DNA from: a virus
DNA length: 64,000 nucleotides
Virus record (IMG/VR): IMGVR_UViG_3300046782_000218
Location: 1 to 64,000 of that record
Direction: 5' to 3' (one strand)
The notes below the pieces were generated by a model. The model ran no database searches. It saw nothing but the letters and a program-made list of their open reading frames with translations, and was not told the DNA's origin. The stretch's first letter is position 1, and each line of letters starts with the position of its first letter. The position numbers and the translations under genes were made by a program. Of the stretch, positions 3,603 to 20,664 are shown piece after piece.

Positions 3603-4298
3603 TCAGTCAGCGTCGATCACGAAGTGCTCGTAGGCCACGGAGTAATCGGCCTTCTCAATGGTGGAGCTGCGAAGCTCGGTCTTGTCACCGAGCCACGCCT
3701 TGGCGTTCTTGGTGAACGTCTCCAGGTCGGTGCCGAAGCTGTATCCGATCGGCTCGTGGCTGTTCTTCTGGCCGTCCGACTTCTGCAGGTTCCTCATCAC
3801 GGCGCGCGTGGCCGGGTCCTCGCCGATCCGCGCGGTGATCGATTCCGCAAAGCGACGCTGTTCGCGGCTGATGCCCTCCGCTACCTTCATTGTGATCTTG
3901 TCGCCGAATTGCCTCGCGGCGTCCAGCGCGTGCTCGTGGCCGCCCATCATGTTACCCTTGGCGTTTCCCCACGCCCGGATCAGGAATCCCTTAGCCTTGG
4001 CGTCATGGCCGGGGAGGAACTTCCGGCCTTTGCCCGGGGTGCGGGTGACGTCGCAACCGGTGTGGTGGAGCACCCCGGCACGGTCCCGATATCCCAGGGT
4101 CGCGCACCCGCACACCGTGGCCTCGGCAAGGTCGGTTACCTTGTAGTCAGACCATCCGCTGGCCGTGGTGTGTGTGAACGCGGGGAGGAACTCCACGTGG
4201 ACGATCTCGCCGACCGGGGTCAGGGAGGGCTCGCTGCGAACCCAACCGATCTCGCCGTTCGGGGTCTTGACCACGGTCCCGATTTCCAGCATCTCCAC
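3603..4298 (-). CDS. PGHDA-motif protein with SH3-like N-terminus (paralog 2)
   Basis: CGC..HTGC..FLPGHDAKAKGFLIR; AAGGAG RBS; promoter at 4329-4358. Confidence 0.7.
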   Translation of the reverse strand: MEMLEIGTVVKTPNGEIGWVRSEPSLTPVGEIVHVEFLPAFTHTTASGWSDYKVTDLAEATVCGCATLGYRDRAGVLHHTGCDVTRTPGKGRKFLPGHDAKAKGFLIRAWGNAKGNMMGGHEHALDAARQFGDKITMKVAEGISREQRRFAESITARIGEDPATRAVMRNLQKSDGQKNSHEPIGYSFGTDLETFTKNAKAWLGDKTELRSSTIEKADYSVAYEHFVIDAD

Positions 4299-4414
4299 CA
4301 GCTCCTTCGTTTCCGTCCTTGTAATAAAATTTTATCATGCCACAACGGGGAAACGCAAGTCCCCTCGCCCGGTCGATCTCGGGCGAGGGGACGTCTTGCG
4401 AAGCGCGGATCGGG

Positions 4415-4819
4415 TCAGCCGACGTGCGGGTTGCTCTTGTTGGCCGCTACCTGGCGCACGAGGTCGGCGATCAGGTCGGCCAACGTGGCGTTCGGTCGGT
4501 TGGACACCCGGGCCTGCTCGGCTCCACTGGAGTCTTCCGCGACCAGATCACCGTACCCGTCCGCCACCACGGTCATGACGTGGAACCCGCCGTTGCCCGC
4601 GTTGATCGTCATGGGCTGCACCTTCACGTCGGTCGCCTTGACCGCGTGCGGGCTAAACTTGTCGGCGAGAGCCTCAGCCAGGATCTCGTTGAGGAGGTCC
4701 GCCGGGCTGATCTCGCGCGCTGCGGCTACCTGCTTGACGATCTGGGCAGTTGCCCCGGTCAGCCGTCCGTCGAAGTTGACGAACTGCAGAAAGTCGGGGA
4801 TGGGCTGGATGTCGGCCAC
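4415..4819 (-). CDS. Hypothetical protein in its own promoter/terminator cassette
   Basis: GAGGAG RBS, promoter 4864-4893, hairpin 4360-4392 downstream. Confidence 0.6.
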   Translation of the reverse strand: MADIQPIPDFLQFVNFDGRLTGATAQIVKQVAAAREISPADLLNEILAEALADKFSPHAVKATDVKVQPMTINAGNGGFHVMTVVADGYGDLVAEDSSGAEQARVSNRPNATLADLIADLVRQVAANKSNPHVG

Positions 4820-4911
4820 GGTGGTCTCCTCAGGTCGGGGCGGGGGGTCCCGCCGTTAGTACCATTCTACCACATCGCCCCCGGGTCACGCAACCCGGGG
4901 GCCGGAAGCCC

Positions 4912-5046
4912 TTAGGCCAACTCACCGTCGCAGTCGTCCCACACCCGGTGGTTGGCCGCCGCGTCGTCGCGAGCGTCGTCCAGGTCCGTGGACTCGGCGG
5001 TAAGGACGGTTCCGCACTCCTGGCAGGTGAACCGGAACTCGTTCAT
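4912..5046 (-). CDS. 44-aa Zn-finger-like microprotein (absent from the ORF track)
   Basis: Hand translation MNEFRFTCQECGT...HRVWDDCDGELA; GGAGG RBS; promoter 5076-5105. Confidence 0.6.
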   Translation of the reverse strand: MNEFRFTCQECGTVLTAESTDLDDARDDAAANHRVWDDCDGELA

Positions 5047-5145
5047 TTTGGGCCTCCGTCGTCGTCGTTAATACCATTCTATCATGGCAACCTGGGTTGG
5101 CACAAGTTGGCGGTCCGCCCGAACTCTGGCGGACCGCCGGTCAGG

Positions 5146-5373
5146 TCACAGCGGGAGGATCTGGTCCTCGGTAACGTCGGTCCGGCCCTCGTCTCCGTAC
5201 CCGTAGAACTCGGATTCGGCCCCGCTGATCTCTCCCCCCAAGCCATCGAGGTCCAGGTCCACCCCAACCATGCGGACGCCGGTGAACAGGTCCACGTACC
5301 ACGCGACCACGGTGGCCTCTGCTACCTCGCCGAAGTAGTCGACGCGCACCTTCTGACCCTTGGTGAACGGCAT
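5146..5373 (-). CDS. Small SH3-like hypothetical protein
   Basis: MPFTKGQKVRV...VTEDQILPL; GAGAGG RBS; promoter 5418-5447. Confidence 0.55.
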   Translation of the reverse strand: MPFTKGQKVRVDYFGEVAEATVVAWYVDLFTGVRMVGVDLDLDGLGGEISGAESEFYGYGDEGRTDVTEDQILPL

Positions 5374-5568
5374 CGGGTGTCCTCTCGTTAGGGGCGGGGT
5401 TCCCACCCTGTAGTACCATTCTACCACGGCACCCCGGGTTGGCACAAGCTGGCGACACGAGCCCACGGACGGCCGTCCCGCGACCTGGGAGGGGCTGGTC
5501 GGTACTCTGGGCCCCCGGGCACGCCGGAGCCCCCCGGTGACGTCACCGGGGGGCTCGGCGGGGGTAGA

Positions 5569-5775
5569 TCAGTGCCGCGTGATCTCGGTCGCGGTCCAGG
5601 TCTCGTCCCGGTCATTTCGCGCGCTGCGCGTGTCCAGTTCCTGCTCGGCCACCCGGCCAATCTCGGCCAAGGTCCCCTCCCGGTCGGCCTCCAGCTCGGC
5701 CAGCGTGGTGTCCACGTGTTGCACGTTGGTTCGACCGGTGGAAGAGGTCAGCTTCACGGAGTGGGTGATCTTCAT
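5569..5775 (-). CDS. Small hypothetical protein
   Basis: MKITHSVKL start after AAGGAG; promoter 5829-5858; hairpin 5527-5557 downstream. Confidence 0.55.
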   Translation of the reverse strand: MKITHSVKLTSSTGRTNVQHVDTTLAELEADREGTLAEIGRVAEQELDTRSARNDRDETWTATEITRH

Positions 5776-5979
5776 TAGGGTCTCCTTGGGGCCGGTGGTT
5801 GGGGGGTCGTCCCCCAACCTCTAATAAAATTATACCATACAACAAACGGTCTGCACAAGTCACCGGCGTGAGGTCTTCCGTAGGGCATCCGGCAACCTAT
5901 CGCAGGCTGGCCGATATTGTGGTACTCCAGACACGCCCGAGCCTCCCGGAATGGTCACGGGAGGCTCGGGCGGGGGTTG

Positions 5980-6558
5980 TCAGACGGTGCGCAGGACCTC
6001 GTACTTCGTGGTCTCCTTGCGGGTGTGGCCGTCCTTGGCCAGGTAGTAGAAGGTGCCGTCCTTCTCGATGCCCTTGTACTCCCACCGGCCTACCTTCGCG
6101 ATGACCTCGGGCTCCTCGGCCGGGGTCGGGGTGTTCTTGGCCTTCTTGGCGTCGCGGGCAATCTCGCGCTGGATTCGGGCCTCCTCGCGCTTCGCGGCCT
6201 TGGCCGCCTTGGCTGCAGCCTTCTCGGTGGCGGTCGCGATGCCATTGGCGACCATGTAGCCGAAGTCGTACCGGTTGGCATGGGTCTGCGCGTCAGCGGA
6301 GACGCTCATCCCGCCCTCGGTCCGGCGGATGTCCGCGCCGTTGATCGTCGCCATCTTGATCAGGAAGCTCTTGAGCTTGGCGTCGTGGCCGGGGGCGAAC
6401 GTGTTGCGGGTCGTCGCGGTGCAACCGGTCGTGAACTCGGCGTCCCAGGTCAGGTCGCCGTCCTCGGTGTCGCGGACGTTCACCAGGACGTCGTACTTGC
6501 TGCACTCGCAGGCGATGAGGTCCTTGACAGTTGCGGCGGGGGCGGTGGTCTCGGTCAT
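5980..6558 (-). CDS. PGHDA-motif protein (paralog 3)
   Basis: CEC..GC..FAPGHDAKLKSFLIK, AKAAK-rich helix; AAGGAG RBS; promoter 6606-6635. Confidence 0.75.
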   Translation of the reverse strand: MTETTAPAATVKDLIACECSKYDVLVNVRDTEDGDLTWDAEFTTGCTATTRNTFAPGHDAKLKSFLIKMATINGADIRRTEGGMSVSADAQTHANRYDFGYMVANGIATATEKAAAKAAKAAKREEARIQREIARDAKKAKNTPTPAEEPEVIAKVGRWEYKGIEKDGTFYYLAKDGHTRKETTKYEVLRTV

Positions 6559-7016
6559 TTCAGGCTCCTTCGGTCGGTGGGGCCGGAGCCCCTGTCGTTA
6601 ATACGATTTTATCATGCGACCGATAACCTGCGCAAGTACCCTTGACCGTGTGATTTGTGTCACACAGCTGACCCCCCGCCCAAGCTAACCAAGCGGAGGG
6701 TCAGTTTGACCGCTTAATCATTCATCGTCTCCAGCGGGGAACGGCTCATCGTCCTTCTTTCCGCACCAGTCGCACATCATGTCACCCCCTCACCACTCCG
6801 GCTCTGACATGATCTGGCTGAAACAGGGGCCGCAGGTGTTGGTGATCAGCAATTCGCGGTCGGCGGGGGTGAGGTACGGGAACGCGTCCTGCGCGAGCTT
6901 GCCGTGAAGGAACGCGTCGTAGTCGTCTGCGTAGACGTTGATGTTCTTACGTACCTCACACTTCGGGCTGACATCGGCAACGCACTTGATAGATACGGCG
7001 ACCATTGGGTCTCTCC

Positions 7017-7385
7017 TCAGTTGTGGCTTCGAAGTGACGGAAGGTGGTTGAGTTGCAGGATGTGGCAACTGGCGTAGTGACCGGCGGCTGGACCAACCCA
7101 TATCGGGATGTCCGGACCATCGACCCACGGAACCAGCCAGGTGGCTGTCAAGCCAACCGCCAGCGTGGTTCGGACGATCGGAATCATTACCTCGGTGCGG
7201 AAAGTGTACCACACTTCATTGGACTGAACACACCAGCCGCACACGCCGCAGCGGCCGGTCTTGCACCCCCGCTCAAGGTCCCAGGCAAGGCCGTGAACCA
7301 ACGAATTTACTTGCTTGGCGGCCAGCGTGTGAGTCGCCGAGCACCGGAGGACCTCGTCCCCCATACCTACGTGAAAATGGTTCAT
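7017..7385 (-). CDS. Hypothetical Cys/His-containing protein
   Basis: GGAGG RBS; CKTGRCGVCGWC. Confidence 0.5.
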   Translation of the reverse strand: MNHFHVGMGDEVLRCSATHTLAAKQVNSLVHGLAWDLERGCKTGRCGVCGWCVQSNEVWYTFRTEVMIPIVRTTLAVGLTATWLVPWVDGPDIPIWVGPAAGHYASCHILQLNHLPSLRSHN

Positions 7386-7435
7386 GGTTCCTCCGTCCGG
7401 CCCCCGCGTCTACGACGACGCGGGGGCGGTCAGGG

Positions 7436-7606
7436 TTACGGCTTGTGGAACAGCCCGGGATCGGGTGCGGGGGCGTTGGCGATGTCGCTTGCGTGCTCGT
7501 CCTCGGCCACCACGTCAGGAGCCGCGTTAGCGCCAGACCAGGCGACGCTGTCGAAATACTCGGCAGCGTCGGCGTCGTCCTTCGGTACCGGGTCGTACTT
7601 GGCCAT
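7436..7606 (-). CDS. 56-aa acidic microprotein (absent from the ORF track)
   Basis: Hand translation MAKYDPVPKDDADAAEYFDS...; GAGAGG RBS; promoter 7651-7680. Confidence 0.55.
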   Translation of the reverse strand: MAKYDPVPKDDADAAEYFDSVAWSGANAAPDVVAEDEHASDIANAPAPDPGLFHKP

Positions 7607-7650
7607 GCCGGTCCTCTCGTCGGTCGGGGTCTTGTCTCCCCGTTATCTCT

Positions 7651-7714
7651 ATTCTATCACGTGATACCGGTCATTCACAATGGATTGTGCCAACTCAGCG
7701 CGGGATGATAGAAT
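7651..7714. promoter_or_regulatory. Back-to-back divergent promoter pair
   Basis: Minus: TTGTGA-N18-TAGAAT (7651-7680); plus: TTGTGC-N18-TAGAAT (7685-7714). Confidence 0.75.
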
Positions 7715-7744
7715 GTTACTAACACTGAGAGATAGGGGCCAACC

Positions 7745-8017
7745 GTGGCGAAAAAGACGATACTTCCTCCGAGGCTGATCGAAGTTGAGGGGCAGACGCT
7801 CTACCTGTTTCCCTCGGAGAGCTATCCGTATCAGAGTGTCAAACTAACTCTGAACGCGTCCAAGGCGCTGGGGTTCAAGCGTCGAGTGTCGCGGAGCGGG
7901 TGGGTCAGCCTGCATCAGGTGTACAAGAGCGGCGGCATCGAATGGGTCAAGGTGTTGACACTCGCCGACAGTTCCAAGTACCTGGTTCCGGACAGCACCA
8001 TCAAAGCCAAGCCCTGA
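7745..8017 (+). CDS. Basic hypothetical protein; the only convincing plus-strand gene
   Basis: Own promoter 7685-7714; hairpin at 8024-8061 shared with convergent purB. Confidence 0.65.
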   Translation: MAKKTILPPRLIEVEGQTLYLFPSESYPYQSVKLTLNASKALGFKRRVSRSGWVSLHQVYKSGGIEWVKVLTLADSSKYLVPDSTIKAKP

Positions 8018-8023
8018 ACAACG

Positions 8024-8061
8024 CGACGCCCCCCGCCGGAGTCAACAAGGCGGGGGGCGTC
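8024..8061. terminator. Hairpin between convergent genes
   Basis: CGACGCCCCCCGCC ... GGCGGGGGGCGTCG perfect inverted repeat. Confidence 0.7.
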
Positions 8062-8072
8062 GGCGTGTCTGA

Positions 8073-9431
8073 TCATTGGTTAGTGACACCCAGCATTCGA
8101 GACAGCCGGTCGAACACGTGGTCGGTGTTGCCAACGGTCATCCGACATACTTCGTGAAGCTCGACCCAGTTCGGGTTGAACTTGGTGTCGTCTAGGTCTC
8201 CAGTCTTGACGCGGTGACGAGCTTCTCGGGCGACTTCGGCGGCCAGCCTGCTGCCCGCGTCGCAGTTGTCCACAGCTGCCTTGACCACGTGCCAGGCGTC
8301 CATGGGGTCGAGACCTTTCTCAACTAGCCAGGTCCTGGCCGTTGCACTCATGACCTCTGGCTCGTGGTCATACGCGTTGGCCGACATGCGGTCGGCGCGC
8401 ACTTCAAGAGTGCCGATCAGGCCGGTGGCCTTGTTGACCATGGTGTCGAGCAGGATCAACGCGGTAGGCAGCGCGATGCGCTCTACGCTGCTATGACTGA
8501 TGTCGCGTTCGTGATGCAACGCGATGTCTTCCAGCGTGGGGCCGACCTGAGCACGCACCAACCGGGCCAAGCCGGACAGATTCTCGCTAACGATCGGGTT
8601 GCGCTTGTGCGGCATGGCCGATGATCCTTGACGACGATCGGCCCCACCTTCGACCAGTTCGCCGACCTCAGTTCGCATTGACAGACGGACCTCCATGGCC
8701 AGCGACTCGATGACCGCTGCAGCCTGCGCGCAGGCGTACACCAAGTGCGCGATGGAATCGCGGAACACTACCTGCGTGGCCGTTATCGGAGCACTGACCG
8801 AAGGTCCGAGCAACAAATGCGCGAACTTGGCCTCGTCATCGTGGCTGATCCGCTTGTAGTCGCCAACCGGGCCGGACAGTTTGGGGGTAACGGCTTCGGC
8901 ACCGGCTCGTCGAAGTAGGCTGTGAGCCCGCACCATGGCAAACGTGACGTCGGCGACCTTGTACCCCCAGGTGGTAACCTCGGCAGCTTGTCCGTGCGTC
9001 CGGCCGATGCGAAGCGTGTTGCGGTGTTCGAGGGCGTGACCCGCAAGTGCCCGTACCAGTTTGTCCATCCGGCGGTCGATGACGGTCCACGAGTTGGCTA
9101 TGGCCAACGACATAGCCGAATCGACCAGGTCCGAGCTGGTCATGTTCCGGTGAACCCACCCATGAGCCACGAGGTGCATGTTACGTCGCCACGCGGCCAG
9201 GAACGCCATCACGTCGTGACCCGTCGTGGCCTCTTCCTCGGCTACGGCGTCCGGGGTGGGCACCTGAGCCCGTGCCATGGCTTCCGTGGCTTCGGAGGAG
9301 GCTCCCTGGGCCTTCGCGGCGGCAATCTCCACCCTAGCCCAGTCGCGATACTTGGCCTGTTCCGACCAGATGGCCGCCATCTCGCGGCCAAGATACCGCT
9401 TGGGCACCGGAATTTGGTCGAGCGTGTTCAT
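8073..9431 (-). CDS. purB: Adenylosuccinate lyase (fumarase/ASL superfamily)
   Basis: RY..EM..IWS, T.HDVMAF, VH..MTSSD, GRTHGQAAE.TTWG, GSSAMPHKRNP signature, LHHERDISHSSVER. Confidence 0.95.
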   Translation of the reverse strand: MNTLDQIPVPKRYLGREMAAIWSEQAKYRDWARVEIAAAKAQGASSEATEAMARAQVPTPDAVAEEEATTGHDVMAFLAAWRRNMHLVAHGWVHRNMTSSDLVDSAMSLAIANSWTVIDRRMDKLVRALAGHALEHRNTLRIGRTHGQAAEVTTWGYKVADVTFAMVRAHSLLRRAGAEAVTPKLSGPVGDYKRISHDDEAKFAHLLLGPSVSAPITATQVVFRDSIAHLVYACAQAAAVIESLAMEVRLSMRTEVGELVEGGADRRQGSSAMPHKRNPIVSENLSGLARLVRAQVGPTLEDIALHHERDISHSSVERIALPTALILLDTMVNKATGLIGTLEVRADRMSANAYDHEPEVMSATARTWLVEKGLDPMDAWHVVKAAVDNCDAGSRLAAEVAREARHRVKTGDLDDTKFNPNWVELHEVCRMTVGNTDHVFDRLSRMLGVTNQ

Positions 9432-9885
9432 TGCTGTCCTGTCTTGTCGTCAGCTTCGGTATTGCCGGTTTGCAGGTACTGCACCGTGTCCTCTCGGACC
9501 TGTTGGGACGGCTCGCTGTTGTCAAGCTGAGCACACGCCCACTGTGACGCCGCAAACTCAAGCGCGGTAGCTTCCTTGACCACGTCAGCCCTCCTGTGTC
9601 AGATATTGCCGGATGTCTGCCAGGTCGGCAGCGGCCTGCTCAAGCTCCGCTGCCGTCTGGTCGGCCTGCTGGCTGAACTCGTCCTCGGTCACGCGTTGCC
9701 CAGGTCGTACCACAGGGTGTGGGCGGCTTCCCTGGCGTCGTCGATGGCCTTACGGAGGTTGTCCCGTTGCGTGGTCATCTCCTCCAGGTCGCTGCGGAGC
9801 TGGTCCCGCTCGTTCTCCAGGTCGGAGACGTCCCCCCGCAGGTCCCCGATGATGGTGTTGGGGTCCTCTTCCGAGTAGCTGGCCA

Positions 9886-10224
9886 TCAGAAACTCACTCC
9901 CATCAGGAAGAACTTGCCGCTGACGCTCTGGTAGATCTTGACCGGGACGCCGTCCACGAACACCTGGTCCGCCGAGGAGGAGCCCACACGGTCCGTGATG
10001 TCGAAAGTGTCGCTGAGGTCCGACAGCCACAAGACCTCGGTGTAGTTCTCCCCGGAGTAGTCGCACTTGTTGACGGCCAGCTCGATGTCCCCGGCAGCTT
10101 CCTGGATCTTCTCCAGGGCCGCTATCAGGTCGCCGATCCTGGCCGCACGTTCCGACTTGTGCGGCCAGACGTTCGTCTCGGGGTCGATGGAATCCTTGTC
10201 GCGCCAGCGACGCTCTGTGGCCAC
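9886..10224 (-). CDS. Hypothetical protein, first gene of the operon ending in purB
   Basis: AGGAGG RBS; promoter TTGTAC-N18-TAGAAT at 10278-10307. Confidence 0.6.
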   Translation of the reverse strand: MATERRWRDKDSIDPETNVWPHKSERAARIGDLIAALEKIQEAAGDIELAVNKCDYSGENYTEVLWLSDLSDTFDITDRVGSSSADQVFVDGVPVKIYQSVSGKFFLMGVSF

Positions 10225-10312
10225 TGCTGCCTCCTAAGCTTAGGGGACCGTCCGGGCTGGACGGTCCCCGTACTACCATTCTACCATGGGGCGTGTAGCT
10301 GGTACAAGCTTC

Positions 10313-11236
10313 CTAGCGTCCGGTGGACCCGAACCCGTTGGAGCCCCTGACCTTGTCCCGGGTGTTGCCCCACTTGGCGTTGAAGCCGAGGGCAGCGGTC
10401 GGGAGGAGGATGATCTGCGCGACCCGCTCACCAGCCGCCACCGTGACCGGCTCGGTGCTGAGGTTCTGGCAGCCCGCGAACAGGACCCCGGTGTAGCCGT
10501 TGTCGATGATCCCGGTGGACACGAGGAGCTTCCTCGCGCGGAGCGTGGAAGACCGGCCGGTGATCATGCCCCACAGGCCGTCCGGGAGGTCCACGGCCAC
10601 CCCCGTGGGGACGTCCACGAACTCACCCGGCTGGATGGTGGTGTCCTCCAGAGTGTACAGGTCGTAGCCCGCGTCGTCGTCGTGCCCCCGGGTCGGCAGC
10701 TTCGAGTTCACGTTGTACGCCTGGAAGATCAGGTCCCACGAGGGCTTGCTCTCGATGGAGGGAACCCGGCGGACGGACTTCTGCAGCTCGCCCATCAGTT
10801 CCGCTCGGCGCTGCAGCCAGTCGGCGACGTCGTACCGAGCGTTGGACGTCTCGGGGCTGACTACCAGTACGTTGGCATCACCGGCCCACCCGCTGATGGC
10901 CCAACTGTTGTTGGTCTCGTCGGTGGCGATCACCACGGGGGTGCAGTTGTTGCGGGCACGCTCGACCTCGGCCGGAACCCCGTAGGTCACCACGCCAGAG
11001 GGCAGGTACGCAAACAGCGCGTGGGCAGCGTCGAGCGCGAACTCGTTGATCTCGCTGATGAACCCGGCAGGGTCACCCTGACCCGGGATGAAGGCGCCGC
11101 CAGGCAGGTAGGTCGACCAGCCGCTCTGGCTCATGGCCTGCTGCAGCTCGCACAGGAACTGAACGTGCTTGTGGTTAGGCTCCGTACCGTAGTCGAGCGG
11201 CTGGGCCCAGTACAGGAGCTTGCTCGGGCTATTCAT
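10313..11236 (-). CDS. N-deoxyribosyltransferase/NMP-glycosidase-like domain fused to a trimeric dUTPase-family domain (DutZ-like)
   Basis: C-terminal dUTPase motifs DAGYDL, GRSS, GIIDNGYTG, ERVAQ, RGSNGFGSTG; N-terminal LYWAQP..TYLP..INEFALDAA..TYGVPAEVERA...PVV resembles the NDT/Rcl fold. Confidence 0.8.
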   Translation of the reverse strand: MNSPSKLLYWAQPLDYGTEPNHKHVQFLCELQQAMSQSGWSTYLPGGAFIPGQGDPAGFISEINEFALDAAHALFAYLPSGVVTYGVPAEVERARNNCTPVVIATDETNNSWAISGWAGDANVLVVSPETSNARYDVADWLQRRAELMGELQKSVRRVPSIESKPSWDLIFQAYNVNSKLPTRGHDDDAGYDLYTLEDTTIQPGEFVDVPTGVAVDLPDGLWGMITGRSSTLRARKLLVSTGIIDNGYTGVLFAGCQNLSTEPVTVAAGERVAQIILLPTAALGFNAKWGNTRDKVRGSNGFGSTGR

Positions 11237-11509
11237 CGGGTTTGACTCCTACCTAGTTGGATGGGCTGCCGGGCGGGGCGATTACCCGCCCGGCAGGGTG
11301 TCACGGAGTGTGCAGCTCGGTGTAGACAGTGAACTCAGAGCCCTCGTCGCCGCTGTCCTTCCAATCGGACTCGTCGACGTCCAGGGCCTTGCCTCGGGTG
11401 ATGAACAGCTCCCCGGGGTACCGCTCGATGGCTTTGCCCACCGCCAGCGCCTCGGCCGATGTCATACCCTGCTCGACCAAGAACGCCAGGAACTTCATCT
11501 CGCCCCTGG

Positions 11510-12037
11510 TCACGGCCACTGCCCGTACTGCCGGATGAATTGGGCCATGGCCGCGTAAATCATCAGGTCACGAAGCGTGTCAACACTGGGCGCGACTCCC
11601 CGGATCATGGCGTCGGCCACGCGCTGCATCTTTCCGTATGCATAGACGAAGCAGCCGAGTTCGAGCGCTTCGGCCGGTTCGACCTCGCGCCCCTGGCCTC
11701 GGGCGTACAACCTGCCCATGGCCGCCAGCGAATTGGAGCCGTACTCCCTGGCCTTGGCCGCGATGGTGGGAGCCTCGGTGGCTACCAGCTTGGTCCACCA
11801 CTCGTCGAACTCCACGGGGCTGATGCCCAGTTCCCGCCGTAGTTCCGCCTCGGTCAGGGCTTCCGGCACTCCCACCCTGAGAGGGTTAACCATCGTTCTG
11901 TCCAGCATCTCTTGGAGCTTGGCCCGGTTGTCCTCCGCCGGACGGGGGCCGGGACCTCCGCAGGACGGGCAGTTGGGGACTCCGAACACCGGCTCGGTCG
12001 GGTGTCTCGGGTCCGTGCATTTGATGCGTTCGGTCAT
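11510..12037 (-). CDS. DUF1599/Nmad1 all-alpha NTP pyrophosphatase-like protein (putative MazZ role)
   Basis: KAREYG ... GKMQR ... DTLRDLMIYA pattern; directly downstream of purZ. Confidence 0.7.
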   Translation of the reverse strand: MTERIKCTDPRHPTEPVFGVPNCPSCGGPGPRPAEDNRAKLQEMLDRTMVNPLRVGVPEALTEAELRRELGISPVEFDEWWTKLVATEAPTIAAKAREYGSNSLAAMGRLYARGQGREVEPAEALELGCFVYAYGKMQRVADAMIRGVAPSVDTLRDLMIYAAMAQFIRQYGQWP

Positions 12038-12049
12038 GTTGCCATGCTC

Positions 12050-13153
12050 CTATCGGAGGAAGATGCCAGTGGCCGGACCGGTGCCCACGAAGTTGACGTG
12101 GGTGCCGACGTTGGCCTGAGTGATGCCGACGAGGGACGCCAGCTGACGCGCCGTGTCGTTGTCTACCCGACTGGCGTCGGAAACGCCTGCCAGCTTCGGA
12201 ATCAGCGTGTCGACCATGGTGAGAGCCAGCTTGACGCCGATGCCGCCGTTGTCCTCGACGGCGTTGCACACCATCTCGTTGTCCCACTCGCCGACGCGGC
12301 GAACCTTGTTGGTGACCGTGGTGCGCTCCTCCGGCAGGCCCAGCTCTTCCCAGGTGGTCTCACCCTTGAGGGGACCGGAATTACCGGCCACGCGGATCGG
12401 CCGGACACGAGCCGCCAGCCACACCTGGAGCTGGTCGACCGAGTCGTGCCAGGGGCTGAGTCCCGCCATGGCCAGGAAGTCGATGGCCCGGCAGTCGGAC
12501 GAGGTGCACTGCGGGTACATCCCGGCGTGCGTTCCGAGTCCGTAACCCTGCGTCCCCTCGATCAGGACGGAGTAACCCTGTCGGAGCTGGCCGTACATCC
12601 ACGGGGCGGAGTCGAAGTCGCCGCCGAACAGCTCGGCCTTGCGCCACACCCGGTCGGCACGAGCGGCGCCGATGCCCTTCGCCGTCGAGCCCAGTCGCTT
12701 GACCAGGTCGGATTGCTGCTCGTCGAAGATGTGGTGGGGCTTGAGCAGTGTCGCCGATCGGTCCACGGACAGCCGACTCGACACGTCGTATCCCGCGCGG
12801 TCGAGGGCGTCCTTCTCGGCGTCGAGCACGGCCAGGTCGACCTCGGATCCGGCCGCGATCACCAGATGCGCGTTACGGTTGCTGACCGCTGCGACCGGCA
12901 CGGACCGCAGCTTCCACAGGTGCGCCGTACCGTCGGGGATGGCGACGCCGTCCAGGTTGGTCATGACCACGTGATTGGTCTCGTCCGGCTTGCACCCCGG
13001 AGGGCACTTGCCCACTACGGTGTGACCCGCGTTCGGTCCGGCCACGCGGACGGCCACCAGGTGGGCCTCCCGCTGCGACAGCTGGTCAGCAACAGAACCC
13101 TTTCCCTCGCTTCCCAGTTGACCGCCAGCCACTACGATGAGCTTTCCGCTCAT
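12050..13153 (-). CDS. purZ: PurZ (PurZ0-type) N6-succino-2-amino-deoxyadenylate synthase, a PurA paralog
   Basis: GGQLGSEGKG (Ser where PurA has catalytic Asp, GDEGKG), GPNAGHT, GSTAKGIG, IEGTQG, YPQCTS, RVAGNSG, ERTTVTNKVRRV, LTMVD; short archaeal-type length (367 aa). Confidence 0.88.
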   Translation of the reverse strand: MSGKLIVVAGGQLGSEGKGSVADQLSQREAHLVAVRVAGPNAGHTVVGKCPPGCKPDETNHVVMTNLDGVAIPDGTAHLWKLRSVPVAAVSNRNAHLVIAAGSEVDLAVLDAEKDALDRAGYDVSSRLSVDRSATLLKPHHIFDEQQSDLVKRLGSTAKGIGAARADRVWRKAELFGGDFDSAPWMYGQLRQGYSVLIEGTQGYGLGTHAGMYPQCTSSDCRAIDFLAMAGLSPWHDSVDQLQVWLAARVRPIRVAGNSGPLKGETTWEELGLPEERTTVTNKVRRVGEWDNEMVCNAVEDNGGIGVKLALTMVDTLIPKLAGVSDASRVDNDTARQLASLVGITQANVGTHVNFVGTGPATGIFLR

Positions 13154-13226: not shown

Positions 13227-13721
13227 TCATTTGGCGTTACCCTGACGCACCTGCTTAACCCAGAAATATCCAAGGCACTCGCTGTCCTTTGAGTGACCTC
13301 CGTGGCCGTAGCTCTTCCAAGCCCGGAGCGGCATCTGCGGCGGCATGAAGGCCATCGTCTTGTACAGCTTCTTGTGGTGACCAGCAAGATACCGCCGCAT
13401 TGGCACTGCGGTACGGCGACAGATGTGCTTCATGGCACCGATGAGTTCCGAAGTCTGGAACTCCGACCCGATCTGCTGCCCCATCAGTTCGCCGTAAAGC
13501 TGAAATTTCTCGTACACTACCAGATCGATCTTGCCAGCGTCGGTAACCTCGATCAACATGTCGACCATACGGTCCGGCGTGGTCTCCCATGACCGCAGAC
13601 ACTGGTCCCCAGACCAGGTGGTTACTCCCACGTGAATGTCCCCAGGGTCAATGGACGTCCAGCGGTCCGGCAGCAGGTTGGGCAGCGGGAACTCGAGCGG
13701 GTCGTTTATCACTGTATCCAC
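13227..13721 (-). CDS. RuvC-like Holliday junction resolvase
   Basis: SIDPGDIHVG, VVYEKF, ELIG, H..DS acidic residues of the RNase H fold. Confidence 0.75.
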   Translation of the reverse strand: MDTVINDPLEFPLPNLLPDRWTSIDPGDIHVGVTTWSGDQCLRSWETTPDRMVDMLIEVTDAGKIDLVVYEKFQLYGELMGQQIGSEFQTSELIGAMKHICRRTAVPMRRYLAGHHKKLYKTMAFMPPQMPLRAWKSYGHGGHSKDSECLGYFWVKQVRQGNAK

Positions 13722-15079: not shown

Positions 15080-17391
15080 TCAGTGCTTGTCCCTCCAGCG
15101 ATCCGGGGAAATCCCCCAGGTCATCGTGCGGCCTCTGACGTTGAAGTATTTCTGGAACTCACGCTCACCGATGGCTGACACTTGTTCAGCTTCCTTGCGC
15201 CCTGCCTCGTCGGCTGTGTGCCTAGTCACCAGGCTGTCGTGTATCTGCAGCAACAGAACGCCAGGCATCTCGCGTTCAACAGCCAGCATCCATTTAACCA
15301 TCCCCCTCGCCAAATTACCTTGAATCACCTGGTTTACCGCGCTGTTGGTCTTCTCGCTGGGGCTGTACCAGCGTCGCCAGCCATCCAGCATGGTCAGATA
15401 CCCACACCCGCCCTGCCAGCGGGTGACCTTCTGGGTTGCCTGGTTGGTCAGACGCCGGAACTCAGGGTATTCGGTGAAGAAACTCTCCATTGCGTCCTTG
15501 GTGGCCTGCATCGAAATCGGTACGCCGGATGCGGCCTCGATCTGTTCCATCAGTGCCTTGACGCCACCGCCGTACAGGATGCCGAACGTGCCTCGCTTGG
15601 CTGCGTTACGCAGGTCGTAGAATTGCGGGTGGTCGGGGTCGACGCCGAACAACGCTTTGGCGTTCATCGCGTGCAGATCGGCCCCGGAGTCGAGGGCGTC
15701 CCAGAGCTTGGTACTGCCCGCGATTACGGTAACCACACGCATTTCGCCGGTAGCGAGGTCGTGCTCGTACAGGTCGTACCCGGGCTCATCTCCGATGATG
15801 CTCCGGATAGGCTCCGTGTCTTCCGGGATGAGTCGTCCGTGCGGGATGGCCTGGGCCTGCCAGCGGCCCACCGCGAGCCTCCCAGATACCGTCCCGCCCT
15901 TTCCGTCGCTGGCCCGGTCGAAATCGCCCTTGGTCTGCTTGTATCGAGTCCGGATACGACCATCCTTGCCGGTGCGCTTGGCCCAACCGGTATACCACTT
16001 GGAGTCGGAATTCCGGTTCTTGGTCCAGGCCATGAACTCCTGAGCCCACGGTCGCCCTTCGCTGACCAGTTTTCGCAGCTCGGTCAGGTCCAATTGAGGC
16101 TGTCGGGTCTTCTCGGTCCGGCTGGTCGGCTCCAGCCCCATGCCGTTCTTCCCGCCACATTCCGGGCACGACTTCTCGCACACCGTGGGGAACGTCAGAT
16201 CTTCCGCCCACGGGTCACCGCCACCGGGTGCAGGAACCTGCACATCCGCAGACCGGCTGCACGTCGGGCCGTAGTAGAACCGTTTGGCCTGCGCGATCTT
16301 GGAGGGATCGAACGGCATCACAGCTGCGATCTTGCGGTTGCGGACGCGAAGCTTCGCACCCTCGGCCAGCGACCGATCTACCGCGTAGTAGACGCCTCGA
16401 CGCTCCATGCGGTAGAGCGTGGTCCGAAGCTCCATCTCGTCCTTGACCAGATCCCAGAACTTGGGCAGTACCTCGCCGTTGTCAGCGCACGCCAGCTGAT
16501 ATTCCTTGAGACGCGCGGTCAGCTGGGTGTCTTTGGCCGCGTACTTTGACATCGCTCCGGCCCAGACGAGCAGATCGTATCGCTTGGTCATCTGAACGCC
16601 GACCTTGGAAAGCTCGTCTTTCAGTTCCTCGGCCTCGGTGCCCTCGTCTTCACCCCACAGCCGCTTAGCTGTTTTCTTGAGGGCAGCCGGTTCGAGCGGG
16701 TCGATGAGCTGTTTCTGAATGACCAGGGTGCACCAGATGGCGCGACGCCGAGTAGCCGGGTTGACCGGCGGCTCCAACGTAGGTTCCATCATGTTGAGCC
16801 GCTGGGGTTTGTTCAATTCCCAGGTACCCGGCTCACTGTCAGGGTCCCACGCCCCCCAGCCGTCCCAGATTTCGGGGTTGCTCCCTGCACCCGCGCGCAG
16901 ACCGGCTGCGAACATCGGCATATCGTGGATCGAGTTGTGCATGGTCAGGTTGTCGCGTCGGTCGAGCCATGCGATCAACTTCGCGTACTCGGTAGCGGGC
17001 AGGTTGGGTGCCGCGTCCGCCATGGTGATATCGCGGCCGAGGACCTTCGACATAGCGGCCAGGATGCGGTCCTGCTCGGCCTGGTCGATGATGGCGAATT
17101 CGGCATGACCTGTCTCCGGGTCAACGGTCGGCTTGCCCGGCTTGCCGATGAGCGGCCCCTGATCGAACGGCCACGCGAAGTCGAGCAGTTCGTTGGTCTC
17201 GGGGTCGCGGAAGCTGAGCGACACCACCGAAATTCGGGCCTCAGGCTGCGGCGGATTGTTTCCCGATTTGAACGGCTCACCGTCTCGAAAAAGGCCGGAC
17301 GCTAAGAGCCCTCCGTGTCGACGCTAACGTCCCACCCCGAGGGGAGTTCCGGCAGCTCGACGTCACCTACGCGGGTGAATTGGAGAGTCAT
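15080..17391 (-). CDS. Family A DNA polymerase (DpoZ candidate) with 3'-5' exonuclease; as given, interrupted by an 8-nt insertion at 17298-17305
   Basis: ExoI VDTEGS|GL, ExoII MHNSIHD, ExoIII YAAKD, motif A HDLATGEMR, motif B RNAAKRGTFGILYG, motif C QIHDS; the upstream fragment 17391-17306 joins in frame to the 15080-17227 ORF if GACGCTAA is removed. Confidence 0.88.
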
Positions 17392-20248: not shown

Positions 20249-20664
20249 TGCAACTCCGATCGTTCGTTTCGTTTGTGGCGCGGCCCAAAACCGGGGCCGA
20301 ACGGCTGACGTATCTTCTACCATTCTACACTGTCTGACCCCGTCCGGTCAAGCCGGACGGAGCGTTGTTTAATAGTCGGGATAGCTGTCCCACTGGGGGT
20401 GGTTGGCGTGCCACGGCGGGAGGGCCGAGAGGGGGTCTTCCTGGGCCTGGGAGCCCTGGGGTGGCCCTGGGGCCCCCGGAGCGGCTCCCATGTTCTCCGT
20501 GGTGCCCTCCTGCGTCACGGCGGGGCCCTCCTGCTCCAGTGCCGCCAGGAGGGCCCGCGTGCTGGCCAGTGCGGTATCTACCGCGTCTGCCAGGTTTCTT
20601 ATCGCTTGTGTTACTTCCGGGTTGATCTTGATGACCACGTCAACAGTGCGGAGACGATCGGCCA

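What the first reader, a model, noticed from the sequence alone, without database searches (positions are those of the whole stretch)
10313..11236. N-deoxyribosyltransferase-like domain fused to a dUTPase: possible two-step dATP destroyer
Seen: the first ~160 aa carry an NDT/Rcl/MilB-like pattern (Y.A.P; G...E nucleophile in TYGVPAEVERA). The C-terminus has all five dUTPase motifs, with motif 3 reading GIIDNGYTG. Inference: the dUTPase-fold domain converts a purine dNTP (perhaps dATP) to dNMP and the NDT domain then cleaves or swaps the base. This would deplete dA beyond the monophosphate, replacing DatZ, or salvage diaminopurine.
Basis: inference. Interest (0 to 1): 0.72.

Follow-up and report, generated by a model that had tools for sequence, protein, structure and literature searches.

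The report
DmtZ-DutZ dATP-clearing fusion enzyme

Summary
The ORF at 10313-11236 (minus strand, 307 aa) is real and has two domains. Residues 178-306 match Pfam dUTPase (E 7.5e-25) and carry all five motifs. Residues 1-156 match no Pfam or NCBIfam model. They fold with high confidence (pLDDT 89.5) into the nucleoside deoxyribosyltransferase (NDT) fold; the best PDB matches are DNPH1/Rcl and MilB (Z 14.7).

The whole protein aligns end to end with the Arthrobacter phage Wayne fusion enzyme (36% identity, E 2e-48). Poubanne et al. (NAR 2026, PMC12884076) showed that this enzyme converts dATP to dAMP (DutZ domain) and then to adenine (DmtZ domain). [quoted passage not shown]

All seven residues the paper names in DmtZ are conserved here: Y9, D15, P45, N64, G86, E90 and W112. 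The gene lies two genes downstream of a PurZ0-type synthetase. The 89-kb phage record has no Pfam-detectable DatZ, MazZ, DUF550 or DUF5664.

This is a new, divergent member of a known kind. This scan reached the same reading at least four times on other DNA.

The parts
10313..11236 (-). Whole dmtZ-dutZ fusion gene, 307 codons plus a TAG stop
   Evidence: Single ORF. GC3 is 0.906. Aligns end to end with the Wayne fusion at 36% identity, E 2e-48. The full-length model has pLDDT 91.5 and pTM 0.68.
10769..11236 (-). DmtZ domain (residues 1-156): NDT-fold dNMP N-glycosidase / deoxyribose-5-phosphate transferase domain
   Evidence: The model has five strands in an alpha/beta fold, pLDDT 89.5, pTM 0.83. 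Foldseek top hits are 7m5h, Rcl and DNPH1, with MilB at rank 6. VIA-align gives Z 14.7 to DNPH1 and 14.6 to MilB. tblastn hits the Wayne N-terminus at 4e-7 and Ghobes gp53 at 1e-5.
11198..11212 (-). YWAQP: Tyr9 (triad Tyr, equivalent to Ghobes Tyr6) on strand beta-1
   Evidence: Y9 and P13 are invariant in 115 sequences. The paper reports that Y6A abolishes activity.
11192..11194 (-). Asp15, equivalent to Ghobes Asp12, the proposed reader of the adenine 6-amino group
   Evidence: Invariant in 115 sequences. Mapping. D12A and D12R lose dAMP hydrolysis in the paper's Table 2; D12A keeps only residual dGMP activity.
11102..11104 (-). Pro45, equivalent to Ghobes Pro57 (transferase-type, water-excluding Pro)
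   Evidence: Conserved in at least 90% of 115 sequences. Mapping.
11045..11047 (-). Asn64, equivalent to Ghobes Asn77 (triad residue; Asp in most NDT hydrolases)
   Evidence: Conserved in at least 90% of 115 sequences. Mapping.
10955..10981 (-). GVPAEVERA: Gly86 (phosphate contact, equivalent to Gly99) and Glu90 (catalytic nucleophile, equivalent to Glu103)
   Evidence: G86 is invariant and E90 is at least 90% conserved in 115 sequences. E90 is invariant in the 95 fused forms. It aligns with the GV.VE segment of solved NDT 8pqp.
10901..10903 (-). Trp112, equivalent to Ghobes Trp124 (proposed active-site lid contributed by the partner subunit)
   Evidence: Invariant in the 5-sequence alignment. 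Mapping.
10712..10768 (-). Inter-domain linker (residues 157-175)
   Evidence: Mean pLDDT is 68-69 for the residue blocks 151-170 in the full-length model and 55 in the N-domain model.
10316..10711 (-). DutZ domain (residues 176-307): trimeric-type dUTPase fold with motifs 1-5
   Evidence: Pfam PF00692 E 7.5e-25. PDB dUTPases down to E 2.2e-20. 48% identical to Ghobes DutZ and 40% to the Wayne C-domain. Falls inside the DutZ-type group of the tree.
10538..10576 (-). LWGMITGRSSTLR: DutZ-group signature around motif 2 (W222, G227, R233)
   Evidence: W222 is found in 93% and G227 in 90% of 40 DutZ-type rows, and in 0 of 12 other phage dUTPases. R233 is found in 80% against 8%. All three are present in the Wayne and Ghobes DutZ sequences.
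12050..13153 (-). Context: PurZ0-type 2-aminoadenylosuccinate synthetase, two genes upstream
   Evidence: phrog_1211 E 6.1e-75. The GSEGKG loop is visible in the translation. 56-59% identical to Streptomyces phages Hiyaa and Galactica, 42-45% to Arthrobacter and Gordonia PurZ0, and 27-30% to Vibrio-type PurZ.
8073..9431 (-). Context: PurB-like adenylosuccinate lyase, two genes downstream
   Evidence: Pfam Lyase_1 E 6.1e-35. The same gene is annotated in Streptomyces phage Keanu.

Best explanation
The gene encodes a DmtZ-DutZ fusion enzyme of a PurZ0-type phage, one that writes 2-aminoadenine (Z) in place of adenine.

The C-terminal dUTPase-fold domain (DutZ) hydrolyses dATP to dAMP plus pyrophosphate. 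It also hydrolyses dGTP to dGMP, which feeds PurZ0, and dUTP to dUMP.

The N-terminal NDT-fold domain (DmtZ) attacks dAMP with Glu90. Tyr9 and Asn64 position the Glu, and Asp15 reads the adenine 6-amino group. Adenine is released and a deoxyribose-5-phosphoryl-enzyme intermediate forms. Either water resolves the intermediate, so adenine deoxynucleotide is destroyed irreversibly, or free Z base does, giving dZMP as a salvage route to dZTP.

Together the two halves keep dATP away from the phage polymerase. They do the job that HD-type DatZ and MazZ do in PurZ-type phages.

Shown here: the two-domain anatomy, the fold, homology to the two characterised enzymes, conservation of the named residues, and the genomic context. 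Inferred by homology and not measured here: every catalytic activity and its substrate preference.
For: - **Co-linear homology.** The protein aligns with the characterised Wayne fusion over residues 5-307 (36% identity, E 2e-48). The N-domain alone matches the characterised Ghobes DmtZ (E 4e-12 pairwise; tblastn 1e-5).
- **Named residues.** All seven DmtZ residues named in the paper that are conserved between the Wayne and Ghobes enzymes are conserved here: Y9, D15, P45, N64, G86, E90, W112. Across 115 family sequences Y9, P13, D15 and G86 are invariant, and P45, N64 and E90 are at least 90% conserved.
- **Fold.** pLDDT 89.5. The top PDB matches are NDT-superfamily dNMP N-glycosidases: Foldseek 9e-6, with TM-score up to 0.76 normalised to the target, and Z 14.7 with rmsd 2.5 A over 129 residues.
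- **dUTPase half.** All five motifs are present. It groups with Wayne, Ghobes, Keanu and 34 fused metagenomic forms, apart from all 6 known non-Z phage dUTPases and the 6 IMG/VR dUTPases of unknown status (SH-aLRT 91; its own sub-clade scores 99).
- **Context.** The gene order PurZ0 - small gene(s) - fusion is the same as in Wayne, MrGloopy and Keanu. The N-domain occurs in 113 of 50,697 phage records: 105 Arthrobacter, 5 Streptomyces and 3 Gordonia. PurZ homologues were found in 105 Arthrobacter, 5 Streptomyces and 6 Gordonia records.
- **No alternative enzymes detected.** The 99%-complete 89,118-nt record has one dUTPase. It has no match at E <= 1 to HD, YfbR-like, HD_3, MazG, DUF550, DUF5664 or DUF1599.
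- **Published biochemistry.** The activities of the homologues are given in PMC12884076.
Against: - No assay exists for this protein. It is only 36% identical to the Wayne enzyme, and its N-domain is 28% identical to Ghobes DmtZ, so specificity may differ. The paper itself found that Wayne DmtZ acts only on dAMP, whereas Ghobes DmtZ also cleaves dZMP.
- The two modelled phosphate and base contacts that vary, Ghobes Gln13 and Val98, are Tyr16 and Tyr85 here.
- The N-domain matches no Pfam or NCBIfam model even at E <= 10. This shows that Pfam-based absences of DatZ or MazZ in this divergent phage are weak evidence.
- The neighbouring ORF 11510-12037 is an uncharacterised conserved protein and could be a second nucleotide hydrolase.
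- Support for the DutZ group is moderate: SH-aLRT 91 on a quick tree with only 12 outgroup rows.
- Whether this uncultured phage really contains Z in its DNA cannot be read from the sequence.
Confidence: 0.85

Rival explanations
1. An ordinary house-keeping dUTPase carries an N-terminal DNPH1/Rcl-like domain that works on pyrimidine or modified dNMPs, such as dUMP or 5-hydroxymethyl-dUMP. On this view the gene has nothing specific to do with adenine removal.
For: The best structural matches are DNPH1, a 5hmdUMP hydrolase, and MilB, a CMP/hmCMP hydrolase. The Wayne fusion still prefers dUTP kinetically (kcat app 16.4 s-1 against 5.9 s-1 for dATP; Table 1 of the paper). This is the only dUTPase in the record, so it must also cover dUTP sanitation.
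Against: The homologous Wayne N-domain converted only dAMP among the dNMPs tested. Asp15, needed for dAMP hydrolysis in Ghobes DmtZ, is invariant in 115 sequences. The domain is confined to actinophage genera that carry PurZ0. Sequence identity to DNPH1 and MilB is only 12-17%.
Confidence: 0.05
2. The N-domain works in vivo mainly as a Z-base salvage phosphodeoxyribosyltransferase (dAMP + Z gives dZMP + adenine). Hydrolysis would be a side reaction, so the fusion would be chiefly a second dZTP supply line rather than a dATP destroyer.
For: Pro45, the water-excluding Pro of transferases, and Asn64, found in a few transferases, are conserved. The paper measured transfer of deoxyribose 5-phosphate only to Z and proposes Z salvage.
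Against: In vitro transfer reached only 20%, and hydrolysis to adenine predominated with dATP as substrate. The P57A mutation did not change the transfer/hydrolysis balance by HPLC. A source of free Z base in an infected cell is hypothetical.
Confidence: 0.08
3. The N-terminal domain is a catalytically dead structural or oligomerisation appendage, and only the dUTPase half is active.
For: There is no Pfam or NCBIfam match for the N-domain.
Against: The catalytic Tyr, Asn and Glu, together with Asp15, are conserved across 115 sequences averaging about 30% identity to this one. That pattern indicates selection on the active site. The isolated Wayne N-domain is active.
Confidence: 0.02

Closest known systems
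DmtZ-DutZ fusion of Arthrobacter phage Wayne (NC_041946.1, locus tag FDH63_gp52, YP_009602979.1), characterised by Poubanne et al., NAR 2026 (PMC12884076)
   Same: It has the same two-domain order, an almost identical length (306 aa translated against 307 aa here) and a linker in the same place. It aligns over residues 5-307 (E 2e-48). The DmtZ residues and all five dUTPase motifs are the same. The gene sits in the same place downstream of PurZ0.
   Different: Identity is only 36%. Wayne also encodes a DUF5664 pyrophosphatase (PF18909, E 3.5e-32), which this record lacks at E <= 1. The host phage is about 44 kb (Korravirus), against 89 kb here. Positions 16 and 85 are Tyr and Tyr here, against Phe and Trp in Wayne.
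Separate DmtZ (gp53) and DutZ (gp55) of Gordonia phage Ghobes (KX557278.1), characterised and mutated in the same paper
   Same: The catalytic residues Y, D, P, N, G, E and W are all matched. The DutZ domain is 48% identical. The protein between PurZ0 and DmtZ (Ghobes gp51) is homologous to the window's ORF 11510-12037 (E 2e-21).
   Different: In Ghobes these are two genes rather than a fusion. The N-domain is only 28% identical. Ghobes DmtZ has an insertion of about 18 residues after helix 1 and also hydrolyses dZMP.
'Deoxyuridine triphosphatase' of Streptomyces phages Keanu gp67, Galactica gp67 and Hiyaa gp69 (Hiyaavirus)
   Same: These are the nearest sequence relatives: 41.6%, 39.1% and 37.2% identity over 98% of the length. 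They have the same fusion. The cluster contains PurZ0 and a PurB-like lyase. In the tree the window's dUTPase half falls in a clade with Keanu's (SH-aLRT 99).
   Different: They are not characterised biochemically and are annotated only as dUTPase. In Keanu a 450-aa hypothetical gene separates PurZ0 from the fusion, whereas here it is a 175-aa gene.
DNPH1/Rcl and MilB (NDT-superfamily dNMP/NMP N-glycosidases)
   Same: They share the fold (Z 14.7 and 14.6), use a nucleoside monophosphate substrate, and work by a covalent Glu mechanism (mechanism as described in the paper).
   Different: Identity is 12-17%. The triad has Asn where most hydrolases have Asp, and a transferase-type Pro is present. 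These enzymes are not fused to a dUTPase. Their substrates differ: 5hmdUMP and dNMPs, or CMP/hmCMP.
DatZ (HD-domain dATP triphosphohydrolase) and MazZ/DUF550 of PurZ-type phages such as S-2L and PhiVC8
   Same: They have the same physiological job: excluding dATP and supplying dGMP (paper Discussion).
   Different: The folds and chemistry are unrelated. DatZ yields dA plus triphosphate. None is detectable in this record.

Membership tests
DmtZ (NDT-superfamily dAMP hydrolase / dR5P transferase of PurZ0 phages) | NDT-type alpha/beta fold with a five-stranded sheet | tested here: met
   The model has strands at 6-11, 40-43, 73-77, 101-104 and 123-126, with pLDDT 89.5. PDB matches are DNPH1, Rcl, MilB and NDTs.
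DmtZ (NDT-superfamily dAMP hydrolase / dR5P transferase of PurZ0 phages) | Catalytic triad Tyr6 / Asn77 / Glu103 (Ghobes numbering) | tested here: met
   The equivalents are Y9, N64 and E90. In 115 sequences they are invariant or at least 90% conserved.
DmtZ (NDT-superfamily dAMP hydrolase / dR5P transferase of PurZ0 phages) | Asp12 (adenine 6-amino reader), Pro57 (transferase-type), Gly99 (phosphate contact), Trp124 (lid) | tested here: met
   The equivalents are D15, P45, G86 and W112. D15 and G86 are invariant and P45 is at least 90% conserved in 115 sequences.
DmtZ (NDT-superfamily dAMP hydrolase / dR5P transferase of PurZ0 phages) | Significant sequence similarity to the characterised DmtZ proteins | tested here: met
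   tblastn of the N-domain gives Wayne 4e-7 and Ghobes 1e-5 in a 2.3-Gb database. Pairwise E-values are 2e-48 for the full length against Wayne and 4e-12 for the N-domain against Ghobes.
DmtZ (NDT-superfamily dAMP hydrolase / dR5P transferase of PurZ0 phages) | [quoted passage not shown] | not testable with these tools
   This needs purified protein and LC-MS or HPLC assays.
DutZ (purine-accepting dUTPase of PurZ0 phages) | Trimeric-type dUTPase fold with motifs 1-5 | tested here: met
   PF00692 positions 3-129 of 129, E 7.5e-25. Motifs located. PDB dUTPases at E 2.2e-20.
DutZ (purine-accepting dUTPase of PurZ0 phages) | Falls in the monophyletic DutZ group that the paper reports (its Fig. 6A) | tested here: met
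   In my tree of 52 rows, the 40 DutZ-type rows (Wayne, MrGloopy, Keanu, Ghobes, L005, 34 fused metagenomic forms and the window) form one group at SH-aLRT 91. The window's sub-clade scores 99. Support is moderate and there are only 12 outgroup rows.
DutZ (purine-accepting dUTPase of PurZ0 phages) | Hydrolyses dATP and dGTP as well as dUTP | not testable with these tools
   No published sequence determinant is known to me. The group-specific W222, G227 and R233 are candidates only.
PurZ0-type Z-DNA system (context) | PurZ with Ser in place of the PurA catalytic Asp13, lying nearer PurZ0 than PurZ | tested here: met
   The GSEGKG loop is visible in the translation; its equivalence to Asp13 is taken from the paper's statement and the motif, not from an alignment to E. 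coli PurA made here. Identity is 42-59% to actinophage PurZ0 against 27-30% to Vibrio-type PurZ. This is a ranking by identity; no tree was built.
PurZ0-type Z-DNA system (context) | Z replaces A in virion DNA | not testable with these tools
   The phage is an uncultured record, and the base modification is invisible in the sequence.
Pfam Nuc_deoxyrib_tr (PF05014) | Scores above the family's gathering threshold | tested here: not met
   There is no hit for the N-domain at E <= 10. However, 59 of 115 homologues match at E <= 0.01, and a family profile reaches solved NDTs at 2e-5. The domain is therefore a member of the superfamily, though not of the Pfam model.

The most novel reading that the evidence does not exclude
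In this Hiyaavirus-like lineage the fusion may be the only dNTP pyrophosphatase, doing the DatZ, MazZ and Dut jobs in one protein. The DutZ-group signature around motif 2 may be what opens a uracil-specific pocket to purines. That signature is W222 and G227 (absent from all 12 other phage dUTPases compared), together with R233 and D208. A dimeric NDT fold joined to a trimeric dUTPase fold would force a hexameric assembly that hands dAMP directly from one active site to the other. The aromatic pair Tyr16/Tyr85 (Phe/Trp in Wayne, Gln/Val in Ghobes) may be what spares dZMP from hydrolysis.
Probability: 0.2. Interest if true: 0.45.

Novelty: new member of a known kind. Interest (0 to 1): 0.22.

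Why it matters
The gene adds a divergent example of the DmtZ-DutZ enzyme from an uncultured 89-kb phage. It is at most 41.6% identical to any phage-record relative and 36% to the characterised Wayne enzyme.

The exhaustive search shows the family is much wider in metagenomes than the 85 NCBI genomes counted in the paper: 219 clusters at 50% identity, with most of the 149 listed being fused forms.

For annotation, such genes should be named DmtZ-DutZ rather than "dUTPase". They mark a phage as a likely Z-DNA phage.

The group-specific residues and the natural variation at the two variable substrate-contact positions (16 and 85, equivalent to Ghobes Gln13 and Val98) give concrete mutagenesis targets. 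These could show how a dUTPase came to accept purines and how DmtZ tells dAMP from dZMP.

It does not open a new question.

Tried and rejected
**Searches that gave little or nothing**
- Pfam and NCBIfam scans of the N-domain alone at E <= 10 found nothing. A Pfam PF05014 scan of the whole record at E <= 10 also found nothing.
- The search for homologous proteins on residues 1-170 returned only the query itself (1 of 306 candidates). This reflects the tool's word-index limit and is not evidence that the domain is an orphan. The exhaustive HMMER search then found 219 clusters.
- Two of its listed hits, P0003 (1798 aa, 16 stretches) and P0111 (905 aa, 8 stretches), are tandem-repeat proteins. I treated them as spurious and left them out of every alignment.
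- Megablast of 5.8 kb around the gene found no close phage, only 77-80% matches over 3-6% of the query, inside purZ.
- The search for related loci in IMG/VR returned 11 loci that all matched only the dUTPase half.

**Limits of the tree**
- I used every third fused metagenomic protein that passed a length filter and a motif-5 filter, giving 34 rows.
- I used 6 of the 9 distant IMG/VR dUTPase loci, leaving out L009, L013 and L014 as near-duplicates of L008 and L012, and L006 as a fragment.
- I added 6 named non-Z phage dUTPases.
- Two long branches (Lactococcus and Enterococcus phages) were flagged. The 6 named non-Z rows did not form one side of any branch.

**Readings considered and rejected**
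- Two separate genes misjoined: there is no stop and no frameshift, and the alignment to Wayne is co-linear.
- A dead N-domain: the active site is conserved.
- Motif 3 GIIDNGYTG as a specificity marker: Thr249 also occurs in non-Z dUTPases.

**Not done**
- A PurZ0/PurZ tree; only an identity ranking was made.
- Any analysis of model coordinates for the pocket.
- A test of Z content in the DNA.

**Papers**
- PMC12884076: I read the outline and abstract, searched passages, all of Results and the Discussion. Its figures and supplements were not seen; supplements are closed. They may hold the list of the 98 PurZ0 genomes and any data on Hiyaa-like phages or on Ghobes gp51.
- bioRxiv 10.1101/2025.10.22.683976: searched passages only.
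- Other papers: search listing only.
Full report
**The gene**

The coordinates given match a single minus-strand ORF at 10313-11236. It has an ATG start, 307 codons and a TAG stop. GC3 is 0.906 in a window of about 62% GC. A TAGGAG ribosome-binding site lies about 8 nt before the ATG. GC-rich hairpins lie just upstream of the site and just downstream of the stop.

**C-terminal half**

Residues 178-306 match the complete Pfam dUTPase model (positions 3-129 of 129, E 7.5e-25). PHROG 135 'dUTPase' matches at 4e-45. NCBIfam dut matches at 4.8e-29, with 100.9 bits, just under its 102.55-bit cut-off. Among solved structures, 88 distinct PDB sequences match at E <= 1, nearly all listed as dUTPases, with FIV dUTPase best at 2.2e-20. 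It is the only dUTPase in the 89,118-nt record, which is rated 99% complete.

**N-terminal half**

Residues 1-175 match no Pfam or NCBIfam model even at E <= 10. The word-indexed protein search returned only the query itself. An exhaustive HMMER search of 1.84 billion cluster representatives found 219 proteins at E <= 0.001.

Of the 149 listed hits other than the query, 120 are 261-330 aa long, which is the length of fused forms. Eighteen are under 200 aa, which is stand-alone size, and two are spurious repeat proteins. Of 115 sequences in the alignment (the window's N-domain plus 114 homologues), 98 match Pfam dUTPase and 59 match Pfam Nuc_deoxyrib_tr at E <= 0.01.

With that alignment AlphaFold2 gives a confident model (pLDDT 89.5, pTM 0.83) of a five-stranded alpha/beta domain ending near residue 156.
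- Foldseek against the PDB puts the E. faecalis NDT-like protein 7m5h, rat Rcl and human DNPH1 at the top (E 9e-6 to 2e-5), with MilB next at 3e-5; TM-score reaches 0.76 normalised to the target.
- VIA-align gives Z 14.7 (rmsd 2.5 A over 129 residues) to DNPH1 and 14.6 to MilB. The first 38 entries listed are all NDT-superfamily proteins.
- A sequence profile of the window's domain plus 18 stand-alone homologues reaches solved NDTs at E 2e-5, with the Tyr, the Asn and the Gly...Glu segment aligned.

The full-length model (pLDDT 91.5, pTM 0.68) shows two well-folded domains joined by a low-confidence linker at about residues 151-170.

**What it is**

tblastn of the whole protein against 50,697 phage records finds 110 records with a match covering at least 80% of its length. 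The best are Streptomyces phages Keanu (41.6%), Galactica (39.1%) and Hiyaa (37.2%), followed by about a hundred Arthrobacter Korravirus phages at about 37%. The N-domain alone hits 113 records: 105 Arthrobacter, 5 Streptomyces and 3 Gordonia. These include Arthrobacter phage Wayne (4e-7) and Gordonia phage Ghobes gp53 (1e-5).

A literature search led to Poubanne et al., NAR 2026 (PMC12884076). They purified the Wayne fusion, its two halves and the two separate Ghobes proteins.
- The dUTPase-like part (DutZ) hydrolyses dATP, dGTP and dUTP to dNMP.
- The NDT-like part (DmtZ) converts dAMP to adenine.
- Y6A and E103A abolish both activities, D12A and D12R lose dAMP hydrolysis, and N77D and P57A lower hydrolase efficiency.
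- All 98 PurZ0 genomes they counted have dutZ, 85 have dmtZ, and in 77 the two are fused.

A 2025 preprint reports an association of NDT with dZ phage contigs and notes an NDT/dUTPase dual protein in Wayne-like phages (passages only).

**Membership tests made here**

The window's protein aligns with the Wayne enzyme over residues 5-307 (36% identity, E 2e-48). Its N-domain aligns with Ghobes DmtZ (28% identity, E 4e-12).

Mapping the paper's residues through the alignment gives:
- Tyr6 to Y9
- Asp12 to D15
- Pro57 to P45
- Asn77 to N64
- Gly99 to G86
- Glu103 to E90
- Trp124 to W112

In 115 family sequences Y9, P13, D15 and G86 are invariant, and A11, I14, P45, A48, N64, A76, P79 and E90 are at least 90% conserved. 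In the 95 fused forms E90 is invariant as well. The three modelled contact residues that differ among the known enzymes (Ghobes Val11, Gln13 and Val98) are Leu14, Tyr16 and Tyr85 here, against Ile, Phe and Trp in Wayne.

For the dUTPase half I built a tree of 52 rows. The 40 DutZ-type rows form one group (SH-aLRT 91), apart from all 6 known non-Z phage dUTPases and the 6 IMG/VR dUTPases of unknown status. These rows are Wayne, MrGloopy, Keanu, Ghobes DutZ, an unfused IMG/VR form, 34 fused metagenomic forms and the window. The window sits in a sub-clade supported at 99 with Keanu, P0028 and the unfused L005 protein. This was a quick search with few outgroups, so support is moderate.

Positions conserved in at least 80% of the 40 DutZ-type rows and absent or rare in the 12 others are D208, W222, G227 and R233. 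The window has all four. Wayne and Ghobes have them as well. These are candidate determinants only.

**Context**

All genes listed below are on the minus strand, given here in gene order:

| Gene | Coordinates |
|---|---|
| PrimPol | 21774-24551 |
| Helicase | 18470-20323 |
| Family-A polymerase | 15080-17227 |
| RuvC-like protein | 13227-13721 |
| PurZ-type synthetase | 12050-13153 |
| 175-aa ORF | 11510-12037 |
| Possible 72-aa ORF | 11301-11519 |
| DmtZ-DutZ fusion | 10313-11236 |
| 112-aa ORF | 9886-10224 |
| PurB-like lyase | 8073-9431 |

The synthetase carries GSEGKG. It is 56-59% identical to Streptomyces phage PurZ, 42-45% to Arthrobacter and Gordonia PurZ0, and 27-30% to Vibrio-type PurZ. 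This fits the PurZ0 branch, though I made no tree.

The order PurZ0 - small gene(s) - fusion is the same in Wayne and MrGloopy. In Keanu one 450-aa gene intervenes.

The whole record gives no match at E <= 1 to HD, YfbR-like, HD_3 (DatZ types), MazG, DUF550, DUF5664 or DUF1599. These absences are weak evidence, because the N-domain itself escapes its own Pfam family.

**Mechanism**

The best-supported reading is the published two-step route. DutZ strips pyrophosphate from dATP, and also from dGTP (feeding PurZ0 with dGMP) and dUTP. DmtZ then uses Glu90, held by Tyr9 and Asn64, to displace adenine from dAMP. The deoxyribose-5-phosphoryl-enzyme intermediate is resolved by water or by Z base.

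The anatomy, fold, homology, residue conservation and context are shown here. All the chemistry is inferred from enzymes that are 28-48% identical. I put the probability at 0.85.

The rivals are less likely, for the reasons given in their entries: a house-keeping dUTPase with a pyrimidine-dNMP glycosidase, a chiefly salvage transferase, and a dead N-domain.

**Novelty**

This scan has reached the same reading on at least four other genomes. This is a new, divergent member of a known kind, from an uncultured phage whose nearest cultured relatives are Streptomyces Hiyaaviruses.

What is modestly new:
- The breadth of the family in metagenomes (219 clusters at 50% identity).
- The DutZ-group signature residues.
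- Two other fusion partners of the DmtZ domain, seen in passing.

**Limits**

- The paper's supplements and figures were not available.
- No activity, oligomeric state or DNA composition can be tested with these tools.

Noticed in passing
window 11510-12037 (-): The 175-aa ORF lies between purZ0 and the fusion. Its C-terminal ~100 residues are homologous to Ghobes gp51 (E 2e-21) and to an ORF in the same slot of IMG/VR contig L005 (E 6e-29). It has no Pfam or PHROG hit and no significant similarity to Wayne's DUF5664 protein (E 0.43). Its N-terminus has a Cys-rich stretch (C..H..CPSC). It appears to be a conserved, unstudied member of PurZ0 clusters and could be another nucleotide hydrolase.
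   Followed up: partly
library proteins P0143 (303 aa) and P0061 (230 aa), hits: The DmtZ-type domain is also found fused behind other partners. P0143 is DUF5664 (PF18909, 7e-15) followed by NDT (PF05014, 1.8e-10). P0061 is a weak DUF1599-like region (E 0.0076) followed by NDT (E 0.0011). Wayne's DUF5664 is a dATP/dGTP pyrophosphatase in the paper, so P0143 would be the same two-step device built with a different first enzyme.
   Followed up: partly
L005 (IMG/VR contig) 5094-7757: This uncultured contig carries a PurZ0-like gene (GSEGKG), an ORF175-like gene and an unfused 178-aa DutZ. That DutZ is the closest relative of the window's C-domain (54% identity). No DmtZ-like ORF appears in the 4000-10500 stretch I read.
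   Followed up: partly
library proteins P0006 (440 aa), P0082 (392 aa), P0009 (360 aa): These are DmtZ-DutZ fusions with linkers of roughly 50 to 140 residues rich in Ala, Glu and Arg, in place of the ~20-residue linker here.
   Followed up: no
window 10538-10621 (-), residues 206-233: D208, W222, G227 and R233 are conserved in 80-93% of 40 DutZ-type dUTPase domains. They occur in 0-8% of the 12 other phage dUTPases compared. This is a small control set, and their function is untested.
   Followed up: partly
window 30983-32929 (-): This 648-aa ORF combines a PD-(D/E)XK exonuclease N-terminus (PF12705, 6.8e-13; phrog_1218, 2.2e-40) with a LAGLIDADG_3 match at residues 359-408. It also has P-loop, terminase, primase and helicase-like PHROG hits at residues 152-445. 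It may be an intein or homing-endonuclease insertion, or a fusion.
   Followed up: no
window 11265-11300 and 10240-10270 (-): GC-rich inverted repeats flank the gene. One lies between the stop of the 72-aa ORF and the fusion's ribosome-binding site. The other lies after the fusion's stop, just before the AGGAGG and GTG of the next ORF. They look like terminators or RNA-processing hairpins but lack a clear T-run.
   Followed up: no
phage records: Eighteen Microbacterium phage records carry a PurZ0-like gene (about 41-44% identity to the window's). None appears among the 113 records with a DmtZ-type domain. This is consistent with the paper's count of 13 PurZ0 genomes without dmtZ.
   Followed up: no
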